Shown one piece after another: positions 918 through 29,055 of a stretch of DNA of 33,785 bases. Origin of the DNA: Candidatus Woesearchaeota archaeon (lineage in GTDB: Archaea; Nanobdellota; Nanobdellia; SCGC-AAA011-G17; UBA489); the NCBI GenBank assembly GCA_964367575.1, contig CAYIYF010000001.1, forward strand, positions 1-33,785, read 5' to 3'. Below the pieces are notes generated by a model. That model searched no databases. It was not told the DNA's origin and worked only from the letters and a program-made list of their open reading frames with translations. A program made the translations under genes and the position numbers. How positions within the stretch are numbered: position 1 is the first letter of the stretch; every line of letters begins with the position of its first letter.

Positions 918-2714
918 ATGCCATCACTACCACAGCCAGGAGAAACAAATTGGGGAAATAAGTTAAATGAATTTATTCTTACAGGACATAACATAGATGG
1001 CACATTGAAAGGAGTTTTTTCAGGTGTTCTTAATCCGAAAGACTTTGGAGCTAAGGGCGATGGATTAAATAATGATGCTCCTGCATTCCAGGCGATGGTT
1101 GATAGTGTACCTGCTAATGGACGTGCATCAGTCGTAATCCCTCCTGGCACTTACAAACTCAACACAGTCATTACTGTAACGAATAAATTCATTTCTTGGT
1201 ATGGGTGCGGTCCGAATGTCACAGAACTGCGCTTTTTAACGAGTGGATTTGATGTTAATGCTCCAACAGCTGATCCGAATGGCAAGCCAACACTGCTCAT
1301 CAAAGACATGAGCATCTTGTCAATAGGAATTGTTACTAATGGAGTGACTCCTAATACGTTCGCTATAAAATATCGCGGTACAACAACAACTGGAATTGGT
1401 GGCAGTGCACTACTAGCTTCGAACCTTGTAATCGAGGGTCTTGATTGGAACAATAATGCCTTCGGAGTAATCTTTGACATCGCTGATTGCCAGAAGGGAC
1501 GCATAGAAAATGTTATGGCACTCGGCAAGAATGGAGTCCACGTAGCAGACCCTAATGACCCGACAAGCACTACAGCATACTTTGTCAAGATTGGCAGGAA
1601 TTCAACTGGACTGCAGATTCATCACTGCGAAATTTTCTTAGTGCATACATGCGTTGGAATCTTGGATGGAACTTCAGAAGGCATTTATGTATCAGATTGC
1701 ATCTTTGTGAAATGTCATCGGGGTGTTGTAGCTGATAAGTCTCTCACTGGTGGTGCGATGGGAGGACTACAAGTCTTTCGCAACCACATAGCAGTTTTCA
1801 AAGAGGCTGTGCTGCTCATACGAGGTAGTACAGGTACTGGAGTAAATGAAGTTCACATAAGTGAGAACTACATCCTGCCACGCGGAGATGCTCTTGCTAC
1901 TGAAGCGTCTGTTGGCATTAAAGTTGGTGGCGAACGCATCCACATCACTAACAATCTTTTATTATTAAACACAGGGGGTCCTGGTGCTTCTTATACTGGC
2001 ATCACAATTGACTCTGCTTCTGGTGGTCCAGAGGTGAATGTAGTTACTGGAAATATAATTCAAAACTACAATAACAACGCTTCTATCATTCTTGCTGCTG
2101 GTACGCAGGGGAATGTAATCACTAGTAACATAATCAATGGCACTGGCGGAATTTTGGACAATGGCGTGCCTGCTTCAGACAATCCAAACATAATACGCTT
2201 CAACATTGGATCCAACGCAAACAAAATGGATATATGCCGTGTGAAGAAGTCAGTAACTCAGGCAATTCCTAACACTGATCCGTCAACATACCAAGGAACA
2301 CAAGTTACTTTCGACACTGAAATCTTTGACCGTTTTAACACTTTCAATGCTGCAGGCAGTTATATCTCAATACCCGGTGGCGTGACACAAGTTCGCCTGA
2401 CAGCTGGCGTGCGCTTTGATGTGCCTTCAGGTACGACGAATACAAATAGCGGTATCTACTCATTGGCAATCTTCAAATCCAATCCTGCTACCGACGTATT
2501 AATCTGCAGGCAGGTAATCGAATCAACTTCAGGCAAAGGAATCAAGAATCCTGATGGCAGTGGAGACGGAATAGCTTTGTGCGTGGACTCTGGTGTTATA
2601 ACAACAACCGGAGGCGAGCAATTTTCTATTTGGGTTCATCAACATACCGACGATACAACATTAAATATTTTAAATACTCCAGAAACTTTCTTTTCTGTTG
2701 AGTTCCATAGATGA
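918..2714 (+). CDS. pectate-lyase-superfamily right-handed beta-helix protein (tailspike/depolymerase-like) with a possible jelly-roll C-terminal domain
   Basis: NPKDFGAKGDGLNNDAPAFQAMVDS...VVIPPGTYKL is the typical N-terminal signature of Pectate_lyase_3-type beta-helix proteins. Gly/Asn/Ile-rich beta-helix-like repeats follow. No signal peptide of its own. Confidence 0.75.
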   Translation: MPSLPQPGETNWGNKLNEFILTGHNIDGTLKGVFSGVLNPKDFGAKGDGLNNDAPAFQAMVDSVPANGRASVVIPPGTYKLNTVITVTNKFISWYGCGPNVTELRFLTSGFDVNAPTADPNGKPTLLIKDMSILSIGIVTNGVTPNTFAIKYRGTTTTGIGGSALLASNLVIEGLDWNNNAFGVIFDIADCQKGRIENVMALGKNGVHVADPNDPTSTTAYFVKIGRNSTGLQIHHCEIFLVHTCVGILDGTSEGIYVSDCIFVKCHRGVVADKSLTGGAMGGLQVFRNHIAVFKEAVLLIRGSTGTGVNEVHISENYILPRGDALATEASVGIKVGGERIHITNNLLLLNTGGPGASYTGITIDSASGGPEVNVVTGNIIQNYNNNASIILAAGTQGNVITSNIINGTGGILDNGVPASDNPNIIRFNIGSNANKMDICRVKKSVTQAIPNTDPSTYQGTQVTFDTEIFDRFNTFNAAGSYISIPGGVTQVRLTAGVRFDVPSGTTNTNSGIYSLAIFKSNPATDVLICRQVIESTSGKGIKNPDGSGDGIALCVDSGVITTTGGEQFSIWVHQHTDDTTLNILNTPETFFSVEFHR

Positions 2715-8585: not shown

Positions 8586-8690
8586 TGAGCCGAGGAGGAT
8601 TTGAACCTCCGACCCATACCTTGTAAGGGTATTGCCATCTGCAGGGCCTCAAACATTGTCTTAAAGACCTAACCGCTAGGCCACCGGCTC
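8586..8690 (-). tRNA. tRNA-Val(UAC) with a 32-nt non-canonical intron in the D-loop (intron 8639..8670)
   Basis: Hand fold of the minus strand: acceptor GAGCCGG/TCGGCTC, anticodon arm ATACC-CTTACAA-GGTAT, T-arm GGAGG-TTCAAAT-CCTCC, discriminator A. Total 105 nt against 73 nt expected. BHB: central helix GCGG/CTGC, 3-nt bulges TTA and AGA, 6-bp inner helix GGTCTT/GAGGCC. The spliced product is 73 nt. Confidence 0.7.
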
Positions 8691-9410
8691 GAATTCTACT
8701 ACCTTGCCATCATAATAATCTCTTAAAAACCTTTCCATCTCTTTTGATCTTGGAACGTGGCCTGTAAGTGTAAAAACATCAAATTTGATGATATGCTTTT
8801 CATTTGAACTTCCAATTTTGTCAAAATAATTCTTGACATTATCAGCGCCATAAAAGAAGATAGCTTTCTTTGAGTGACTAAACTTCATTCCTAAGGCTAT
8901 GAATCCCTCAACTGCAGATTCTAGTAATGAAGGTATCTTTATTGTCAAATCAGTCATTATTTTCGCATTTGGATGTGGACAGACACTTCCATCAGTGTCG
9001 TGCATTCCTTTGAGGCATCGTTTGAGAAGTTTAGGATTAGAAAAAAAGTATTCAGGGATTGTTATCCGCGCTGCTTTTTTATTTCCTAAAGGAAAACCGC
9101 ATTTATACATAAACTTTACAATTTTACGATTATAGATGATACATCTCGTTACTCTTCCTTGAGTACCATAGCTTGGATAAATTTTTGGCGTAATTCTAAA
9201 CAATCTGTTAATTAATTGTGGAACATAGACAGTAATATACTCCTTATCGAGAAGAGCGTCTGAACTAATATTAAGGCCATTTCCGTTAGAATATAAACAA
9301 CCATCTCCTAGCATTATCCCATAGAATTCCGCAAAATCTTCGCTTTTAACATCAGGAAGAACTCCTTCGTTTTCCTTAAATGCACCATTATTATTACGAG
9401 AAAGTCCCAT
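8676..9410 (-). CDS. double-motif LAGLIDADG homing endonuclease, free-standing
   Basis: Two LAGLIDADG motifs: FYGIMLGDGCL and LKGMHDTDGSV. TATA-like TTTAAATA about 25 nt upstream of the ATG. The last five codons plus stop (GAGCCGGTGGCCTAG) are the first 15 nt of tRNA-Val. Confidence 0.8.
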   Translation of the reverse strand: MGLSRNNNGAFKENEGVLPDVKSEDFAEFYGIMLGDGCLYSNGNGLNISSDALLDKEYITVYVPQLINRLFRITPKIYPSYGTQGRVTRCIIYNRKIVKFMYKCGFPLGNKKAARITIPEYFFSNPKLLKRCLKGMHDTDGSVCPHPNAKIMTDLTIKIPSLLESAVEGFIALGMKFSHSKKAIFFYGADNVKNYFDKIGSSNEKHIIKFDVFTLTGHVPRSKEMERFLRDYYDGKVVEFEPVA

Positions 9411-15482: not shown

Positions 15483-17066
15483 CTATCTTATGTTGAATCT
15501 TTTCAATACTTCTTCCGGAGTCTTGTAATAAGCGCTGATGATGTTATGAACTTCTTTGTATCCTGTAATATGCCTCTTATACATTCCCCACAGCAATAAT
15601 GTTCTTCTTTCAAATTCCTTCAATATCTGATCTCTTGTCATTCCATATTCTGCTTCAATTTTTTTGAAAATGTGGCTTTCTCGCTTGAAAAAGAATTTAT
15701 CTGTCTGTGGATCCCATGCAAATGGTGTGTTTTTTATGAGACTTCCAACTTTTGTTCCAACTTCAATGATTTCTGTTATGTTCTTTATTCTTCTTACTTC
15801 TTTCCCCCCTATTTTTGATTGAGACATCACACATACAGCGTCAAGAGTTTCAACTAGAGACGGAGAAAGATCAATTGGGGGAGTTTCTAGACGGCGAATC
15901 ATTGTTTCTACGTCTTCTGCATGCATTGTCGACATTGTTGGATGACCTGAAGCTGCACCTTGAAAAAGAACAAATGCCTCTTTTCCGCGTATTTCTCCAA
16001 CTATAACATAATCAGGACGCTGCCTAAAACTTGATTTTAAAAGAGTGAATAAAGAGACTTCTCCTAAATTAGATTCGCCGCCAACGCCTGTTGTTTCCCG
16101 CGATACCGAAGGTAGCCAGTTTGTATGCAATAAATTTAACTCGTGCGTGTCCTCAATAGATACAATTCTTGCTTGCGGCGGCATAAAAAAACACAGACTG
16201 TTTAACAATGAAGTCTTACCTGTTCCTGTTCCGCCAATGATCATAATGTTGGATTCGTATTCTATCAACAACCACAAATATGCAAGCAATTCTGGACTTG
16301 CTGTTTTTACTTCAATTAATTTTACAGGACTCCATGGTTCACTTGTAAATTTACGAATTGTAAAAGTAGGCCCATGTGAAGATATATCCTGTGTGTATGT
16401 TGCGTTTACCCTAGATTTATCTGGAAGTCTTCCATCAAGAATTGGATTTGCATATGATATATATTTGCCACATTTTTGTGCAAGCTTTTCAACAAAATTC
16501 ATCAGCTCATCATTAGATGAAAATGTTATATTTGTCTTTAAGTTCCTATACTTTCTGTGAACAATATACAAAGGAGTGTTGAATCCATTGCACTCAATAT
16601 CCTCTATGTAGTAATCGTGCATCAAAGATTCTATCTGGTTTAACCCTACAAAATCACGATACAAGTAGTACATTAATTTGACAAAAACATCATGAGAAGG
16701 ATTTAATCCGAGTTCTGAAAGAAGAACTGTTGCATTTTTCTCAAGGTAAGAAATAACTGCCTGCTCATCCTGGATATTGATAAAGCTTATGTTGATTAAT
16801 TCTTCAATGCCTTTTTCAAGTGCTATGAGCATATTTTTTTCAGCGTCATTTAATGGCGGCTCTACAAGTTCATAAATCACTTCTTTTTCATTTTCATCCC
16901 AATGTATATGTGCATAAGAATATGGGCTCAACAACGGATACGTTACATCTAATTCCGATTTATTAACTGGCTCAGCCAATGGTGGAATTTCAGGTGATTT
17001 ATCTATATGAAACTCAACATCTGAAGTTGGGGCAGGAACAGCCAAACTCTCTTCTGAAAAAGCCAA
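15483..17066 (-). CDS. type II/IV secretion ATPase (FlaI/PilB/VirB11-like)
   Basis: Walker A IIGGTGTGKTSLLNSL; Asp/His-box region PDYVIVGEIRGKEAFVLFQGAASGHPTMSTMHA. GAGGTG Shine-Dalgarno-like element upstream. Confidence 0.85.
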   Translation of the reverse strand: MAFSEESLAVPAPTSDVEFHIDKSPEIPPLAEPVNKSELDVTYPLLSPYSYAHIHWDENEKEVIYELVEPPLNDAEKNMLIALEKGIEELINISFINIQDEQAVISYLEKNATVLLSELGLNPSHDVFVKLMYYLYRDFVGLNQIESLMHDYYIEDIECNGFNTPLYIVHRKYRNLKTNITFSSNDELMNFVEKLAQKCGKYISYANPILDGRLPDKSRVNATYTQDISSHGPTFTIRKFTSEPWSPVKLIEVKTASPELLAYLWLLIEYESNIMIIGGTGTGKTSLLNSLCFFMPPQARIVSIEDTHELNLLHTNWLPSVSRETTGVGGESNLGEVSLFTLLKSSFRQRPDYVIVGEIRGKEAFVLFQGAASGHPTMSTMHAEDVETMIRRLETPPIDLSPSLVETLDAVCVMSQSKIGGKEVRRIKNITEIIEVGTKVGSLIKNTPFAWDPQTDKFFFKRESHIFKKIEAEYGMTRDQILKEFERRTLLLWGMYKRHITGYKEVHNIISAYYKTPEEVLKRFNIR

Positions 17067-20487: not shown

Positions 20488-20605
20488 TTTGTGTGCCTCC
20501 TGATTTTAGGTAGTACCATCCTAGTGATTTAATATAGATTTGCCGTGTGGGTGAGAAGTGCGAGAAATGCGAACTTTTCGACTTTTTGGGCATAATATTT
20601 ATAAA

Positions 20606-20625
20606 CTATAGTTATTCTATAGTTA
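20606..20625 (+). promoter_or_regulatory. tandem CTATAGTTA repeats, candidate operator of the MazEF-like operon
   Basis: ctatagtta-tt-ctatagtta lies immediately before the ATG at 20628. Each unit contains the palindrome CTATAG. TATA-like tttataaa sits just upstream (about 20597..20604). Confidence 0.45.
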
Positions 20626-20627
20626 AC

Positions 20628-20870
20628 ATGATAACTAGCATACAGCTTCATGATAAAGTGAAAACAGCTCTTGATAAGCTAAAAGAAAAAAATAGCGAAA
20701 CTTATGAAGAGGTCATTGCAAAAATGATATCTCTCTTTGATAAACAAAAAAGGAAAAATAGGGAACTACTTATAGAAGGCTGCAAAGAGATGGCTCAAGA
20801 AAGCCTGAACATCACAAAGGAATTTGAAGTAGCTGATTCTGAAATAGAGTGGGAATGGAATGAAAATTAG
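20628..20870 (+). CDS. RHH/VapB-like antitoxin partnered with MazF
   Basis: Track ORF 20547..20870. The ATG at 20628 gives MITSIQLHDKVKTALDKLKEKNSETYEEVIAKMISL..., the common archaeal antitoxin N-terminus. It overlaps the toxin gene by 11 nt. Confidence 0.6.
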   Translation: MITSIQLHDKVKTALDKLKEKNSETYEEVIAKMISLFDKQKRKNRELLIEGCKEMAQESLNITKEFEVADSEIEWEWNEN

Positions 20871-21204
20871 TAGAGGAGATATAATTCTTGCAAACTTAGA
20901 ACCAGTCATTGGCAGTGAACAGGGCAGGACAAGACCTGTTTTAATTATCCAAAATAATGATTCAAACGAATTTAGTCCGACTACTATCATTGCACCAATA
21001 ACCACTAAAGTGTATACAAAAGAGTTTCCCACAAACGTAGAAATTGAAGCTGACGAGTCAAAATTAAAAAATAAGTCAACAATCTTGCTAAATCAAATAA
21101 GAACGATTGACAAATCAAGACTAATAAAGAGAATTTCTTTTTTGAGTAAAGAGATAATGAACAAAGTTGATTTGGCTATAAAAATAAGCCTTGGACTTGA
21201 ATAA
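20860..21204 (+). CDS. mazF: MazF/PemK-family endoribonuclease toxin
   Basis: RGDIILANLEPVIGSEQGRTRPVLIIQNND...TTIIAPITT...LLNQIRTIDKSRL matches the PemK/MazF signature. Confidence 0.85.
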   Translation: MKISRGDIILANLEPVIGSEQGRTRPVLIIQNNDSNEFSPTTIIAPITTKVYTKEFPTNVEIEADESKLKNKSTILLNQIRTIDKSRLIKRISFLSKEIMNKVDLAIKISLGLE

Positions 21205-21209
21205 ATAAA

Positions 21210-21283
21210 AGCCACCGATGGGATTTGAACCCACGACCTCCGCATTACCAATGCGACGCTCTACCGAGCTGAGCCACGGCGGC
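21210..21283 (-). tRNA. tRNA-Thr(GGU), intronless
   Basis: Hand fold of GCCGCCGTGGCTCAGCTCGGTAGAGCGTCGCATTGGTAATGCGGAGGTCGTGGGTTCAAATCCCATCGGTGGCT: anticodon loop TTGGTAA, T-loop TTCAAAT. Confidence 0.85.
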
Positions 21284-26810: not shown

Positions 26811-26944
26811 TGCGAGGGGAAGGATTTGAACCTTCGGAGGCACTAAGCCACAGGATTTCTTACCTTCTGGTCTTAAGTTTGACAATCCTCAAAGATATAC
26901 CTTACAGGATTCCTGCCCAATTGACCAGACTATGGGACCCCCGC
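26811..26944 (-). tRNA. tRNA-Leu(UAA) with two introns (26879..26911, 33 nt; 26857..26871, 15 nt) flanking a 7-nt micro-exon (26872..26878)
   Basis: Hand fold of the minus strand: acceptor GCGGGGG/CCCTCGC, Leu-type D-arm CCA-TAGTCTGGTCAAT-TGG, long variable arm TGGCTTAGTGCCTCC, T-arm GAAGG-TTCAAAT-CCTTC. The total of 134 nt equals an 86-nt mature tRNA plus 33 plus 15. Splicing gives the anticodon arm CAGGA-CTTAAGA-TCCTG. Both introns sit in BHB motifs (details in findings). Confidence 0.65.
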
Positions 26945-26970
26945 ATCTCTAGAAAGCTCTGATTATTTCA

Positions 26971-26978
26971 TTTAAAAG
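26971..26978 (-). promoter_or_regulatory. TATA-like box for tRNA-Leu
   Basis: CTTTTAAA (minus strand), centred about 27-30 nt upstream of the tRNA 5' end at 26944. Confidence 0.4.
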
Positions 26979-27311: not shown

Positions 27312-28529
27312 ATGAGAAAAAAGATGACAAAATTAAAAAGAGAGTTAAATCTTTGGCAAGTCACTGTTGCCGGTATTGGAATAATTCTTGGCGCAGGAAT
27401 TTATGCCCTGATTGGCGTTGCTGCCAATGATTCTGGAAATGCAATCTGGCTCGCATTTTTAATTTCTGCTGTTGTTGCGGCATTTACTGGATTAAGCTAT
27501 GCTGAACTTTCATCCATGTTCAAGGGAGATGCAGGGGAATATGACTATATACATTCTGCCTTCAACAAAAAAATTGCTTATTTTGGAAGCCTTGCAATTA
27601 TTTTTGCCGGTATTGTCAGTGCTGCTACAGTTTCAATTGGTTTTGCTGGTTACTTTACAAGCATATTTAATGTTTCACTCTTGATTGCTGCAATTGGCCT
27701 TGTTATTCTGATGACATTGATTAATTTTATTGGAATAAAACAATCTGCGCAATTTAACACAATTTCAACATTCATTGAGTTTGCAGGTTTATTGCTTGTC
27801 ATATTCATCGGAGCAAAGAAGATAGGAAGCGTAGACTACTTGGTTATGCCTGCCGGCATGTCTGGAGTGTTTAGTGCTGCTGCTTTAGTTTTCTTTGCGT
27901 ACATGGGTTTTGAGAGCATTGTTAAGCTGGCAGAAGAAACAAAGAATCCAGAGAAGACCATACCAAAGGCCATTGTGTATTCTGTCATAATAACTACACT
28001 AATTTATATTTTAGTATCAATTGCTGCCGTGAGTGTTCTGGACTGGCAAGAATTAGGGCATTCAACTGCTCCTTTAGCTAGTGTAGTTGCATCATCACTT
28101 GGTCCTCTTGCTTTTGTAATTGTTGGTATTATTGCCTTGTTCTCAACTTCGAATACTGTATTGATTACACTTGTGACAACTTCGCGAATGATATATGGAA
28201 TGGCAAAAGAGAATACTATGCCAAAGATTTTTTCTTATATTCATAAAAGAACACAAACCCCTTGGGTTGCCATATTCTTCCTTGCTGCGACAACCATTGC
28301 ATTCCTTTTTACTGAGAACCTTGAATTCTTAGCGAACCTGACAACGTTGTTTCTGTTTATAATTTTTGCACTTGCAAACTTAAGCATGCTTATCTTGAGG
28401 TACACAATGAAAGAAAAGAAGAGAGGATTTTACTGCCCTGGAAACATTGGAAGATTTTCCGTTGTTGCGCTGCTTGGATTCTTGACTTCAGTGTTCATGC
28501 TTTACTTTTCTGTTGTCAATTTAATGTGA
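27312..28529 (+). CDS. APC-superfamily amino acid/polyamine transporter
   Basis: Roughly 12 hydrophobic segments. N-terminal LWQVTVAGIGIILGAGIYALIG and AYMGFESIVKLAEETKNPEKTIPKAI are typical of APC permeases. The track start at 27309 is TTG; the first ATG is at 27312. Confidence 0.8.
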   Translation: MRKKMTKLKRELNLWQVTVAGIGIILGAGIYALIGVAANDSGNAIWLAFLISAVVAAFTGLSYAELSSMFKGDAGEYDYIHSAFNKKIAYFGSLAIIFAGIVSAATVSIGFAGYFTSIFNVSLLIAAIGLVILMTLINFIGIKQSAQFNTISTFIEFAGLLLVIFIGAKKIGSVDYLVMPAGMSGVFSAAALVFFAYMGFESIVKLAEETKNPEKTIPKAIVYSVIITTLIYILVSIAAVSVLDWQELGHSTAPLASVVASSLGPLAFVIVGIIALFSTSNTVLITLVTTSRMIYGMAKENTMPKIFSYIHKRTQTPWVAIFFLAATTIAFLFTENLEFLANLTTLFLFIIFALANLSMLILRYTMKEKKRGFYCPGNIGRFSVVALLGFLTSVFMLYFSVVNLM

Positions 28530-29055
28530 ATTCTTCAATTGTCTTGTAGAATGGACCATCCGGCGTCAAGGTTGATTCCTTAAGCCAGAATTTGTCAATA
28601 AAAAATTCAATTTTTTTTGTTTTATTCTTGGTTGGATAGTCGAGAAGCTTCTGCCTATGCTCAAGGCCTTTTATTCTGGCAATTGTGACGTGGCTTGCAA
28701 ACTCCATTTTTTCTTTAGGAAAAACCTTTGAAAGAGTTTCATCTATCTCTTTTTTTAGGTCGTGTATCTCCTGGGCATTTATGCTAATCCAAAATATTCT
28801 TGGAGTCTTTGTATTAAATATTCCCAAACTGCCGAGACTTGCCTTAAATTTTCTTAGCTTTATTTCATTCAATAGCAATTTAACTTTTTCAATTTGCGCA
28901 TTGCTTATCTCTCCCAAAAACTTCAACGTGAGATGCAGATTTTCTTCTTTCGCAAAACTGCCATGGAATAAATTTTTAGATTCCAAATCAGACTGGATAT
29001 TCTTAATTTCTGCTGTAACTTCTTTTGGAAGCTCAATGGAAATAAAACACCTCAT
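28516..29055 (-). CDS. thpR: RNA 2',3'-cyclic phosphodiesterase (2H family, ThpR/LigT)
   Basis: Two H-x-T-x motifs: HLTLKFLGE and SHVTIARI. The 179-aa size is typical. Confidence 0.8.
   Translation of the reverse strand: MRCFISIELPKEVTAEIKNIQSDLESKNLFHGSFAKEENLHLTLKFLGEISNAQIEKVKLLLNEIKLRKFKASLGSLGIFNTKTPRIFWISINAQEIHDLKKEIDETLSKVFPKEKMEFASHVTIARIKGLEHRQKLLDYPTKNKTKKIEFFIDKFWLKESTLTPDGPFYKTIEEFTLN

What the first reader, a model, noticed from the sequence alone, without database searches (positions are those of the whole stretch)
26811..26944. tRNA-Leu(UAA) with two bulge-helix-bulge introns around a 7-nt micro-exon
The minus-strand gene is 134 nt against 86 nt for the deduced mature type II tRNA.

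Intron 1 (33 nt, AATCCTGTAAGGTATATCTTTGAGGATTGTCAA) splits the 5' strand of the anticodon stem:
- central helix GGCA/TGTC
- 3-nt bulges GGA and AAA
- 5-bp inner helix ATCCT/AGGAT

Intron 2 (15 nt, ACCAGAAGGTAAGAA) is at the canonical 37/38 site:
- central helix CTTA/TAAG stacked on the anticodon stem CAGGA/TCCTG
- bulges AGA and AAA
- inner CC/GG closed by AGAA

Only the 7 nt ACTTAAG lie between the introns. Splicing gives a textbook loop C-U-UAA-G-A. The outer helix of intron 2 is contiguous only once intron 1 is out, which hints at ordered splicing. Multi-intron tRNAs are known mainly from Thermoproteales and a few DPANN genomes.
Basis: seen in the sequence. Interest (0 to 1): 0.72.

Follow-up and report, generated by a model that had tools for sequence, protein, structure and literature searches.

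The report
Two-intron tRNA-Leu(UAA) gene, DPANN archaeon
This is a real leucine tRNA gene of a tiny groundwater archaeon, interrupted by two short protein-spliced introns that leave only 7 bases (the anticodon) between them; the layout is unusual to look at, but it belongs to a known kind and turns out to be common in public metagenomes.

Summary
Window 26944..26811 (minus strand, 134 nt) holds exon 1 (33 nt), a 33-nt intron, the micro-exon ACTTAAG, a 15-nt intron and exon 3 (46 nt).

Removing both inserts gives an 86-nt class II tRNA-Leu(UAA):
- ARAGORN calls it tRNA-Leu(taa), and it folds unconstrained into a cloverleaf.
- It aligns without gaps to intron-less genes from relatives, four of them found with the same conserved neighbouring genes. 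These show compensatory stem changes, and the D arm, anticodon arm and variable-arm helix are identical in three of them.

That register, and covariation in the inner helix of intron 1, hold across about 100 distinct metagenome sequences with the same two insertion sites. These include Bathyarchaeia and other DPANN-like contigs.

A syntenic relative with about 75% identical flanks keeps all 86 exon bases and 45 of 48 intron bases, so the gene is not a pseudogene.

The host is a Nanoarchaeota/Woesearchaeota-like DPANN archaeon. Multi-intron tRNAs, relaxed bulge-helix-bulge motifs, 6-nt micro-exons and nested splicing are all published, so this is a new member of a known kind. Ordered splicing is plausible but not shown.

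Side leads: a sister clade carries a duplicated anticodon micro-exon (UAA or CAG) and up to four introns.

The parts
26811..26944 (-). tRNA-Leu(UAA) gene, unspliced form, 134 nt. No encoded CCA; discriminator A.
   Evidence: The spliced 86-mer is called tRNA-Leu(taa) by ARAGORN and folds into a class II cloverleaf as its unconstrained minimum-energy structure.
26912..26944 (-). Exon 1 (33 nt): acceptor 5' strand GCGGGGG, D arm, and C27-G30 of the anticodon stem.
   Evidence: Apart from acceptor-stem positions 2, 4 and 6, the sequence is identical to intron-less L134, L135 and L153.
26879..26911 (-). Intron 1 (33 nt) between tRNA positions 30 and 31. Relaxed BHB of the HBh' type, with only 1 bp of outer helix.
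   Evidence: Register-specific conservation is shown and inner-helix covariation. 30 of 33 bases are identical in syntenic L083, and the one change inside a stem converts G.U to A-U.
26914..26917 (-). Central helix of BHB 1, 5' strand GGCA (tRNA G25-A28). It pairs with TGTC at 26881-26884. C27 and A28 also belong to the anticodon stem.
   Evidence: a=27, b=60: central helix 4/4, inner helix 5 bp. Across 102 sequences three of the four pairs are kept in 100% and the fourth in 82%.
26881..26884 (-). Central helix of BHB 1, 3' strand TGTC, followed by the bulge AA|A (3' splice site).
26885..26910 (-). Inner hairpin of intron 1: ATCCT/AGGAT (5 bp) extended by AAGG/CTTT around a 5-nt loop.
   Evidence: Predicted pairing probability is 0.84-0.91.
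26872..26878 (-). Micro-exon ACTTAAG: A31, C32, U33, anticodon U34-A35-A36, G37.
   Evidence: Intron-less orthologues read GGGCAGG-ACTTAAG-ATCCTG without interruption.
26857..26871 (-). Intron 2 (15 nt) at the canonical 37/38 site. Central helix CTTA (26874-26877) / TAAG (26859-26862), bulges AG|A and AA|A, inner CC/GG closed by AGAA.
   Evidence: a=67, b=82: central helix 4/4, inner helix 2 bp. 15 of 15 bases are identical in L083. The full 5-bp outer helix (the anticodon stem) is contiguous only after intron 1 is removed.
26811..26856 (-). Exon 3 (46 nt): A38, anticodon stem 3' strand, long variable arm (GGC-TTAGT-GCC), T arm, acceptor 3' strand CCCTCGC, A73.
   Evidence: consensus structure of the alignment with orthologues.
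26970..26977 (-). TTTTAAAT, an archaeal TATA-box-like element 26-33 nt upstream of G1.
   Evidence: Read from the sequence. It is conserved in L083 while most of the surrounding spacer diverges. Promoter function is inferred, not tested.

Best explanation
This is a functional tRNA-Leu(UAA) gene of a DPANN archaeon (Nanoarchaeota/Woesearchaeota-like), interrupted by two introns that are removed by the archaeal protein splicing enzymes.

Proposed pathway:
1. The gene is transcribed as one precursor of about 134 nt or more, from a TATA-like promoter.
2. The tRNA splicing endonuclease (EndA) cuts inside the 3-nt bulges of two bulge-helix-bulge motifs. One is a relaxed HBh' motif around the 33-nt intron at 30/31. 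The other is a motif around the 15-nt intron at 37/38, which becomes a strict hBHBh' once the anticodon stem is contiguous.
3. An RtcB-type ligase joins exon 1, the 7-nt micro-exon (A31 to G37, carrying the anticodon) and exon 3.
4. CCA is added after transcription.

The micro-exon is held by at most 4 bp to an intron that is itself excised. Productive maturation therefore most likely needs one complete cut-and-ligate cycle before the second, probably intron 1 first.

What is shown: the gene structure, the motifs, their conservation, and the identity of the predicted product with intron-less orthologues. What is inferred: the enzymes, the promoter, expression and the order of splicing.
For: Product:
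- The spliced 86-mer is called tRNA-Leu(taa) by ARAGORN.
- Its unconstrained minimum-energy fold is a class II cloverleaf.
- It aligns gaplessly with seven intron-less Leu genes. The consensus structure has 24 pairs, 8 with compensatory changes, and none is broken in the predicted RNA.
- It is 81/86 and 79/86 identical to L134 and L135, genes found with the same conserved neighbours in relatives. All differences lie in the acceptor stem, one base 3' of the variable-arm helix and the T loop. L153 and L155 are likewise intron-less.
- The L134 orthologue scores 53.7 bits against Rfam tRNA.

Motifs:
- Both BHBs are in the stated register.
- In 102 distinct sequences with the same two insertion sites, the intron-1 register gives 3.82 of 4 central pairs and a mean inner helix of 5.1 bp. 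Shifted registers give at most 2.0 pairs and 1.4 bp.
- Inner-helix pairs 1-5 are 78-100% paired with 3-6 pair types each, above every one of 500 shuffles.

Selection:
- L083 is syntenic with flanks 72-76% identical, yet keeps exons 86/86, intron 2 15/15 and intron 1 30/33. Two of the three changes lie in the apical loop and one is G.U to A-U.
- The same gene appears in independent assemblies L001 and L002.

Host:
- Archaeal pilus/archaellum genes are present.
- The best named relatives of the FlaI-type (archaellum/pilus) ATPase gene at 15483-17066 are Nanoarchaeota and Woesearchaeota.
- GC content is 33-39%, and the contig comes from a 0.1-um groundwater fraction.

Precedent:
- Up to three introns per archaeal tRNA and relaxed BHBs cut by broad-specificity EndA (PMC3239211).
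- Introns so close that one must go before the second BHB forms (PMC8450103; PMC3728597, citing Tocchini-Valentini 2009).
Against: - There is no RNA evidence: no junction reads, no circular introns.
- No EndA or RtcB gene lies in the window (Pfam scans), so the enzyme type is unknown.
- Whether the genome holds a second, intact tRNA-Leu(UAA) cannot be checked from 33.8 kb.
- Nearest-neighbour folding does not favour the BHB conformers: -28 to -31 kcal/mol against an MFE of -46.3. The central helix of intron 1 has predicted probability about 0.006 because it competes with the anticodon stem. This is usual for enzyme-captured motifs, but it means the structure is not supported thermodynamically.
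- Four of the six relatives of this lineage for which the gene was recovered have no introns. The introns are therefore dispensable for the tRNA as such.
Confidence: 0.88

Rival explanations
1. The locus is a decaying tRNA pseudogene whose anticodon arm was disrupted by insertions. The BHB-like pairings are chance.
For: BHB-like motifs are as frequent in shuffled sequence as in the real one. Close relatives carry an uninterrupted gene. Standard finders do not call the locus.
Against: The exons are perfect, with no stem broken. In L083 the flanks have drifted to 72-76% identity, but all 86 exon bases and 45 of 48 intron bases are unchanged. By my estimate that is about 8e-4 under neutral drift at the flank rate. 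The same two insertion sites with covarying helices recur in about 100 distinct sequences. The upstream TATA-like box is conserved.
Confidence: 0.05
2. The gene is a tRNA-Trp(CCA) with a single 48-nt intron inside the anticodon, as ARAGORN's intron mode reports.
For: ARAGORN -i calls tRNA-Trp (cca) i(39,48) on the unspliced sequence. The resulting loop AUCCAAA on the stem CAGGA/UCCUG is formally a valid anticodon arm.
Against: Those junctions have no BHB: only 2 of 4 central pairs by inspection, and no entry. The body has a long variable arm and A73, both Leu features, whereas Trp tRNAs are class I. With either intron removed by hand ARAGORN itself switches to Leu(taa). All orthologues are Leu(UAA), with the sequence GGGCAGGACTTAAGATCCTG.
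Confidence: 0.01
3. The gene is functional, but splicing has no obligatory order. Either intron can be removed first, or intron 2 goes first from a conformer in which the anticodon stem forms around the protruding intron-1 hairpin.
For: In local folding the 4-bp CAGG/CCUG stem and the intron-1 hairpin coexist (probability about 0.97 and 0.9). The central helix of intron 2 can form in that conformer (probability about 0.18), while the central helix of intron 1 is disfavoured (about 0.006). Broad-specificity EndAs do not need the outer helix (PMC3239211).
Against: The strict hBHBh' for intron 2 exists only after intron 1 is out. Published multi-intron cases are processed in order, with the anticodon-arm BHB last (PMC3728597, PMC8450103). 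Nearest-neighbour energies are a poor guide to enzyme-bound BHBs.
Confidence: 0.35
4. The interruption is an assembly or chimera artefact of a metagenomic contig.
For: The contig is a metagenome assembly of low-coverage populations. L001 and L002 have coverage of 2-3x, as stated in their record names.
Against: The same 134-nt gene is found in two separate Hainich assemblies (L001, L002) and in an unrelated data set (L083, a 79-kb contig). More than 100 other contigs share the architecture.
Confidence: 0.01

Closest known systems
Multiple-intron tRNA genes of Thermoproteales, Thaumarchaeota, Korarchaeum and ARMAN (Sugahara 2007/2008; reviewed in PMC4033280, PMC4090602; detected by tRNAscan-SE 2.0, PMC8450103)
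   Same: These also carry short introns bounded by BHB motifs, one at the canonical 37/38 site plus one or more at non-canonical sites. The non-canonical site has a relaxed HBh' motif. Introns can lie so close that one must be removed before the next BHB is complete.
   Different: The host here is a Nanoarchaeota/Woesearchaeota-like DPANN archaeon. I did not find the specific 30/31 + 37/38 pair in tRNA-Leu(UAA) described in the papers I could read. That search was limited, and GtRNAdb was not available.
[quoted passage not shown] 1C)
   Same: It is also from a DPANN archaeon and has two adjacent introns leaving a micro-exon of only 6 nt, with BHB motifs at both introns.
   Different: That micro-exon lies in the T loop. 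Here it is the 5' side of the anticodon loop including the anticodon, so the decoding triplet is itself a separate exon.
Nested, ordered splicing of multi-intron pre-tRNAs (Tocchini-Valentini et al. 2009 PNAS, as cited in PMC3728597; C. merolae tRNA-Ile(UAU), PMC3728597)
   Same: The outer helix of the 37/38 BHB is contiguous only after the neighbouring intron is gone. In the studied cases the anticodon-arm BHB is processed last.
   Different: The order is not tested here. Both BHB cores can in principle form in the primary transcript, so the introns are adjacent rather than strictly nested.
Group I intron in tRNA-Leu(UAA) of cyanobacteria and plastids
   Same: It interrupts the same tRNA species, within the anticodon loop.
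   Different: That intron is self-splicing, more than 200 nt long, and sits within the anticodon (my recollection: between U34 and A35). Here the inserts are 33 and 15 nt with BHB junctions, and Rfam finds no group I intron. The two are unrelated.
Split and tri-split tRNAs (N. equitans tRNA-Glu; C. maquilingensis tRNA-Gly; PMC4033280)
   Same: The anticodon-bearing piece is a separate module joined through BHB-like motifs. In those systems alternative anticodon pieces share common halves to make synonymous tRNAs.
   Different: Those pieces are separate genes joined in trans. Here everything lies in cis on one transcript. This comparison matters mainly for the side lead in L085, L096, L139 and L132.

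Membership tests
Archaeal EndA-spliced (bulge-helix-bulge) tRNA intron | Two 3-nt bulges on opposite strands separated by a 4-bp helix, with splice sites after the second bulge nucleotide. | tested here: met
   Intron 1: GGCA/TGTC with bulges GG|A and AA|A. Intron 2: CTTA/TAAG with bulges AG|A and AA|A. The register is conserved in 102 sequences.
Archaeal EndA-spliced (bulge-helix-bulge) tRNA intron | Flanking helices h and h' (strict hBHBh'), or at least one of them (relaxed HBh'/hBH). | tested here: met
   Intron 1 has h' of 5 bp (plus a 4-bp extension) and h of only 1 bp, so it is the relaxed HBh' type. Intron 2 has h' of 2 bp, and h of 5 bp once intron 1 is removed (1 bp before).
Archaeal EndA-spliced (bulge-helix-bulge) tRNA intron | Excision restores a canonical, conserved tRNA. 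| tested here: met
   ARAGORN calls Leu(taa). The minimum-energy fold is a cloverleaf. The product aligns gaplessly to intron-less orthologues with 8 compensatory pairs.
Archaeal EndA-spliced (bulge-helix-bulge) tRNA intron | Cleavage by EndA and ligation by RtcB; a genome with non-canonical introns encodes a broad-specificity EndA ((alpha-beta)2, epsilon2, or alpha4 with the L3 loop). | not testable with these tools
   No EndA or RtcB domain was found in any ORF of the window that I scanned.
tRNA-Leu (class II) | Long variable arm, A73 discriminator, a Leu anticodon, and a 7-nt loop with U33. | tested here: met
   The variable arm is GGC-UUAGU-GCC, the discriminator is A, and the loop is C-U-UAA-G-A.
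Nested multi-intron pre-tRNA with obligatory splicing order | The BHB of one intron cannot form until another intron is removed. | tested here: inconclusive
   Only the outer helix of BHB 2 depends on removal of intron 1. Both BHB cores can be drawn on the primary transcript. The central helix of BHB 1 competes with the anticodon stem. Energies do not discriminate.
tRNA pseudogene | Broken stems, loss of conserved positions, and neutral divergence between relatives. | tested here: not met
   No pair is broken. Exons are 86/86 and introns 45/48 identical in L083, against 72-76% in the flanks.
Group I intron of tRNA-Leu(UAA) | A self-splicing ribozyme core (P1-P9) of more than 200 nt inside the anticodon. 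| tested here: not met
   The inserts are 33 and 15 nt. No Rfam intron family matches the window.

The most novel reading that the evidence does not exclude
The most novel reading is that the 'intron / 7-nt anticodon micro-exon / intron' layout is a maintained module rather than two neutral insertions, and that the module lets the anticodon be exchanged.

Three observations point that way.
- The same two sites are used in both DPANN-like contigs and contigs whose proteins cluster with Bathyarchaeia MAG proteins.
- The introns of the window's gene are far better conserved than the flanking genes.
- In a sister DPANN clade (L085, L096, L139, L132) the module is tandemly duplicated: ...TGCT-AA|ACTCAGA|TT(T)TGCY-AA|ACTTAAG|...TGAG-AA|ATCCTG.

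In that clade both copies have complete BHB partners. They share one 3' half-motif, UGAG, which pairs 4/4 with CUCA and 4/4 (one G.U) with CUUA. Mutually exclusive splicing could therefore make tRNA-Leu(CAG) or tRNA-Leu(UAA) from one gene. This would be a cis 'cassette micro-exon' version of what tri-split tRNAs do in trans.

For the window's own gene, the reading means the split anticodon is the ancestral or enabling state of such a system.
Probability: 0.12. Interest if true: 0.8.

Novelty: new member of a known kind. Interest (0 to 1): 0.3.

Why it matters
For annotation, a required tRNA (Leu, UUA/UUG codons) is invisible to default ARAGORN and Rfam. A one-intron model mis-calls it as Trp. 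A second gene in the same window, tRNA-Val(UAC) with a D-loop intron, is seen by Rfam only as a weak, truncated hit. Such genes are a likely source of the 'missing tRNAs' reported for DPANN/Nanobdellota genomes (PMC5829648; bioRxiv 10.64898/2026.05.13.725050 notes tRNA-Val missing in 15 of 54 Pacearchaeales).

For biology, relatives of similar divergence carry either both introns or none. Distant phyla use the same two sites. This locus family is therefore a clean natural series for asking how BHB introns are gained and lost, and how a 7-nt exon survives two cut-and-ligate cycles.

The gene itself does not change what is known about archaeal tRNA splicing.

Tried and rejected
- **BHB motif count as evidence:** rejected, because shuffles give as many motifs.
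- **ARAGORN intron mode on the raw gene:** it returns the tRNA-Trp(cca) single-intron artefact.
- **Thermodynamic folding to show the BHBs or the splicing order:** uninformative. The MFE is dominated by a 7-bp D-loop/intron-2 helix (UCUGGUC/GACCAGA), a length expected by chance about once in two such sequences by my estimate.
- **'Intron 1 never occurs without intron 2':** I first read this, then withdrew it. The pattern could not match a gene lacking intron 2, because the A after ACTTAAG is A38 in such a gene. The corrected pattern could only be run on viral contigs, which hold none of these genes.
- **Looking for EndA or RtcB in the window:** none found.
- **Extending the L085 clade:** the neighbouring protein is an orphan. 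The DUF1385 neighbour yielded only one more copy of the gene, L139. The viral-contig hits to TGCTAAACTCAGATTT are all unrelated.
- **Reading Sugahara 2007 and Tocchini-Valentini 2009:** neither paper is held.
- **C/D-box guide RNA inside intron 1:** no C or D box by eye, and 33 nt is too short.
- **The 8-nt direct repeat AATCCTGT (26911-26904 and 26857-26850) as a target-site duplication:** deleting one copy plus the interval leaves no anticodon loop. A repeat of that length is also not improbable (about 0.14 expected, my estimate).
Full report
**1. What is there**

On the minus strand, 26944..26811 reads GCGGGGGTCCCATAGTCTGGTCAATTGGGCAGG / AATCCTGTAAGGTATATCTTTGAGGATTGTCAA / ACTTAAG / ACCAGAAGGTAAGAA / ATCCTGTGGCTTAGTGCCTCCGAAGGTTCAAATCCTTCCCCTCGCA. 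The parts are:
- exon 1: 26944-26912
- intron 1: 26911-26879 (33 nt)
- micro-exon: 26878-26872
- intron 2: 26871-26857 (15 nt)
- exon 3: 26856-26811

Every length, sequence and coordinate in the finding is correct.

Default ARAGORN and Rfam at gathering thresholds do not see the gene. A permissive Rfam scan finds only its T arm, at 14 bits.

**2. Is it more than chance?**

- Intron 1: GGCA/TGTC, bulges GG|A and AA|A, inner helix 5 bp, outer helix 1 bp.
- Intron 2: CTTA/TAAG, bulges AG|A and AA|A, inner helix 2 bp.

The same scan shows that such motifs are no rarer in shuffles: 22 observed against 21.1 for inner helix >=2 bp, and 1 against 1.0 for inner helix >=5 bp. The motifs alone prove nothing. 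What is far beyond chance is their position, because cutting at these four points yields a flawless tRNA.

The 86-mer is called tRNA-Leu(taa) by ARAGORN. With only one intron removed by hand, ARAGORN finds the other as a Leu(taa) intron. The unconstrained minimum-energy fold of the 86-mer is a class II cloverleaf. It has a 7-bp acceptor stem, a 5-bp anticodon stem with loop CUUAAGA, a 3-bp variable arm and a T arm.

**3. Comparative evidence for the spliced product**

A scan of one genome per species with the 3' end of the gene found intron-less tRNA-Leu(UAA) genes in Pacearchaeota (L007, L009) and Woesearchaeota (L008). Their anticodon and variable arms (GGGCAGGACTTAAGATCCTGTGGCTTAGTGCCT) equal the predicted spliced sequence.

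I then found closer relatives through the FlaI-type (archaellum/pilus) ATPase gene at 15483-17066, whose pilus operon and flanking genes are shared with the window. All of them carry intron-less tRNA-Leu(UAA) genes:
- L134: 81/86 identical to the prediction
- L135/L136: 79/86 identical
- L153 and L155: also intron-less

In L134 and L135 every difference lies in the acceptor stem (compensatory), in one base 3' of the variable-arm helix, or in the T loop. The junction regions are identical.

RNAalifold on the prediction plus seven intron-less genes returns the class II cloverleaf. It has 24 pairs, 8 with double-sided changes, and none broken in the predicted RNA. The L134 gene scores 53.7 bits against Rfam tRNA.

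**4. Comparative evidence for the introns**

All but one of these (L057, a single canonical intron) have both inserts, 18-37 nt and 15-31 nt long.

In 102 distinct sequences, the intron-1 register of the finding gives 3.82 of 4 central pairs, with 82% of sequences at 4/4, and a mean contiguous inner helix of 5.1 bp. Registers shifted by 1-3 nt give at most 2.0 pairs and 1.4 bp.

Inner-helix pairs 1-5 are 78-100% paired with 3-6 different standard pair types each. They exceed all 500 partner shuffles.

For intron 2, three central pairs (C-G, U-A, U-A/G) are kept in 94-100% of sequences and the fourth in 30%. The window's own copy is 4/4.

*Caveat.* I first read as 'intron 1 never occurs without intron 2'. 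The pattern could not have matched a gene lacking intron 2, so that claim is withdrawn.

**5. Not a pseudogene**

L083 is a 79-kb contig from another data set. It is syntenic with window 21.8-29.1 kb at 72-76% nucleotide identity. Its tRNA gene has all 86 exon bases, 15/15 of intron 2 and 30/33 of intron 1. Of the three intron-1 changes, two lie in the apical loop and one turns a G.U pair into A-U.

At the divergence of the flanks, three or fewer changes in 48 intron bases has a probability of about 8e-4 by my binomial estimate. The TTTTAAAT box at 26970-26977, which is 26-33 nt upstream of G1, is also conserved.

The same gene is present in two further Hainich assemblies (L001, L002). L002 differs by one base 3' of the variable-arm helix.

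**6. Host**

- The window has 33-39% GC.
- It encodes FlaI- and FlaJ-type archaeal pilus/archaellum proteins.
- Identical contigs come from the 0.1-um fraction of Hainich groundwater.
- The named relatives of its FlaI-type ATPase are 'Nanoarchaeota archaeon' (80% identity), 'Candidatus Nanoarchaeia' and 'Candidatus Woesearchaeota'.

It is a DPANN archaeon of the Nanoarchaeota/Woesearchaeota kind.

**7. Distribution**

Of the 119 two-intron stretches returned, six are AT-rich and DPANN-like (L013, L026, L083, L085, L096, L132). The remaining 112, plus the single-intron false positive L057, come from loci averaging about 50% GC. Proteins on two long GC-rich contigs (L032, L035) fall in 90%-identity clusters that contain proteins from NCBI MAGs named 'Candidatus Bathyarchaeia archaeon'.

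The 30/31 + 37/38 pair in tRNA-Leu(UAA) is therefore shared by two distant archaeal lineages. Within the window's own lineage, four of the six relatives for which the gene was recovered (L134, L135, L153, L155) have neither intron. The window's exons resemble its intron-less relatives, not the Bathyarchaeia genes, so transfer of the whole gene is unlikely. Repeated gain at favoured sites, or old introns lost repeatedly, cannot be told apart with these data. Loss could occur for example through a spliced cDNA.

**8. Mechanism**

*Shown:* the gene structure, the motifs, their conservation, and the identity of the product with orthologues.

*Inferred from established archaeal tRNA splicing (PMC4090602, PMC3239211):* EndA cuts in the bulges, leaving 2',3'-cyclic phosphate and 5'-OH ends. 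RtcB ligates. The introns are released.

Intron 1 has essentially no outer helix (HBh'). This is the relaxed type cut by (alpha-beta)2 and epsilon2 enzymes. Kaneta et al. propose it is also cut by alpha4 enzymes with the L3 loop, which are found in DPANN lineages rich in disrupted tRNAs (PMC5829648). No such enzyme lies in the window.

Its central helix uses G25-A28, so it excludes the anticodon stem. Intron 2 has its full outer helix only after intron 1 is gone. A 7-nt exon held by 4 bp to an excised intron would be lost if all four cuts came before ligation. I therefore infer two sequential cut-and-ligate cycles.

It is not demonstrated here. Nearest-neighbour models rate the BHB conformers 15-18 kcal/mol above the MFE and cannot rank the pathways.

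**9. Comparison with what is known**

The following are all published:
- multi-intron archaeal tRNAs with up to three introns
- relaxed BHBs
- introns too close to be recognised at the same time
- a 6-nt micro-exon in ARMAN-2 tRNA-Pro (53/54 + 59/60)

Sources: PMC3239211, PMC4033280, PMC8450103.

The finding is a new member of that kind. Its modest particularity is that the micro-exon is the anticodon itself. The classical group I intron of bacterial and plastid tRNA-Leu(UAA) is unrelated, given the sizes of 33 and 15 nt and the absence of an Rfam intron match.

**10. Things seen on the way**

(a) *A second interrupted tRNA in the window.* tRNA-Val(UAC) lies at 8690..8586 (minus strand). It has a 32-nt D-loop intron at 8670..8639 with a strict hBHBh': GCGG/CTGC 4/4, inner helix 6 bp, outer helix 3 bp. 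The same architecture, with a 34-nt intron, is found in L133. L134, L135, L137, L153 and L154 are intron-less, and ARAGORN also calls a tRNA-Val(tac) of normal length in L155. This explains the weak, truncated Rfam hit at 8586-8650.

(b) *Similarity between two introns.* That Val intron and Leu intron 1 are more alike than shuffles: global alignment score 5 against a mean of -5.6, with 1 of 2000 shuffles reaching it. This is a hint of intron transposition. It is not supported by the L133 copy (p about 0.1).

(c) *A duplicated anticodon micro-exon.* In L085, L096, L139 and L132, intron 1 contains a second copy of the unit made of the 3' half-BHB and the micro-exon. The copy reads ACTCAGA and has complete BHB partners: GGCA/TGCT with inner helix 5 bp, and CTCA/TGAG 4/4. 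Either copy gives an RNA that ARAGORN calls tRNA-Leu, (cag) or (taa). The 30-nt duplicated block is essentially unchanged between L085 and the more distant L132, differing by one C/T position and one extra T, while other intron parts differ.

(d) *Four candidate introns.* L096 and L139 have four candidate introns in this one gene: 15 nt and 19 nt in the D arm, one at 30/31 and one at 37/38. Each has a 4/4 central helix. The 15-nt one is absent from the close relative L085. The papers I read give three as the maximum (PMC3239211, PMC8450103), and two literature searches found no four-intron case and no cis alternative-anticodon case. These leads concern other contigs, rest on three or four sequences, and have no RNA support.

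**11. Verdict**

The feature is a new member of a known kind. Its interest is low to moderate, mainly for annotating DPANN tRNA sets and as an entry point to the side leads.

Noticed in passing
window 8586-8690 (minus strand); intron 8639-8670: A second interrupted tRNA: tRNA-Val(UAC) with a 32-nt intron in the D loop and a strict hBHBh' (GCGG/CTGC 4/4, inner helix 6 bp, outer helix 3 bp). Rfam sees it only as a truncated 32.6-bit hit at 8586-8650, and default ARAGORN misses it. L133 has the same architecture with a 34-nt intron. L134, L135, L137, L153 and L154 are intron-less (sequences read), and ARAGORN also calls a normal-length tRNA-Val(tac) in L155. Genes like this may explain tRNA-Val being reported 'missing' from some Nanobdellota genomes (bioRxiv 10.64898/2026.05.13.725050).
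   Followed up: yes
L085 (about 1800-1975, minus strand), L096 (about 2390-2560), L139 (about 1480-1650, minus strand), L132 (contig end): A sister DPANN clade has the anticodon micro-exon module duplicated inside intron 1...TGCT-AA|ACTCAGA|TT(T)TGCY-AA|ACTTAAG|...TGAG-AA|ATCCTG. Both copies have complete BHB partners and share one 3' half-motif. Alternative splicing would give tRNA-Leu(CAG) or tRNA-Leu(UAA) from one gene. ARAGORN calls both products tRNA-Leu. There are no RNA data, and the duplication could be a relic.
   Followed up: partly
L096 and L139 (same gene as above): Four candidate BHB introns in one tRNA gene: a 15-nt D-loop intron (CCAG/CTGG), a 19-nt D-arm intron (TGGT/ACCA), a 36-nt intron at 30/31 and a 17-nt intron at 37/38. 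L085 lacks the 15-nt one. The papers read here state a maximum of three introns per tRNA gene.
   Followed up: partly
L019, L023, L032 and similar (GC-rich group); L015, L035 and similar (variable-arm insert group): The tRNA-Leu(UAA) genes on these GC-rich contigs (proteins on L032 and L035 cluster with Bathyarchaeia MAG proteins) carry a third insert besides 30/31 and 37/38. One group has it in the D loop, after GCGGGGGTTCCCGAG. The other has it in the variable loop (CGTAGAG...GCGCAAGCC). Many of these genes also encode the 3' CCA.
   Followed up: partly
window 26879-26911 versus 8639-8670: Leu intron 1 and the Val D-loop intron are more similar than shuffled controls: 1 of 2000 shuffles reaches the score, and they share ...TAAG....AT.TTTGAGG...TG.CA. 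This may reflect intron transposition between tRNA genes, as described for Thermoproteales. The L133 Val intron does not support it.
   Followed up: partly
window 8676-9410 (minus strand); L153 18403-19140; L154 16579-17256: A 244-aa ORF with weak similarity to intein/homing-endonuclease segments abuts tRNA-Val and overlaps its first bases. In relatives, LAGLIDADG-like ORFs (weak or faint Pfam hits) lie next to tRNA-Val. Any link to intron mobility is unknown.
   Followed up: no
window 28516-29055 (minus strand): A LigT / 2H-phosphoesterase ('2'-5' RNA ligase') family ORF lies 1.6 kb from the interrupted tRNA-Leu (Pfam LigT_PEase, 8e-20). Enzymes of this family act on 2',3'-cyclic phosphate RNA ends, the kind left by EndA. 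The proximity may be coincidence.
   Followed up: no
window 26923-26929 with 26867-26873: A 7-bp perfect complement lies between the D loop (UCUGGUC) and the micro-exon/intron-2 junction (GACCAGA). It dominates the MFE of the precursor. A 6-bp version exists in L085, L096 and L139, with an A-to-G change in L139 that keeps a G.U pair. A helix of this length is expected by chance about once in two such sequences (my estimate).
   Followed up: partly
window 26904-26911 and 26850-26857: The 8-nt direct repeat AATCCTGT occurs at the start of intron 1 and across the intron 2 / exon 3 boundary. The inner helix of intron 1 (AUCCU/AGGAU) also mimics the anticodon stem core. It is not a simple target-site duplication.
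   Followed up: partly
window 20547-21204: A DUF7557 ORF and a PemK/MazF-type toxin ORF form a pair immediately next to tRNA-Thr(GGU) at 21210-21283. This looks like a type II toxin-antitoxin module beside a tRNA gene.
   Followed up: no
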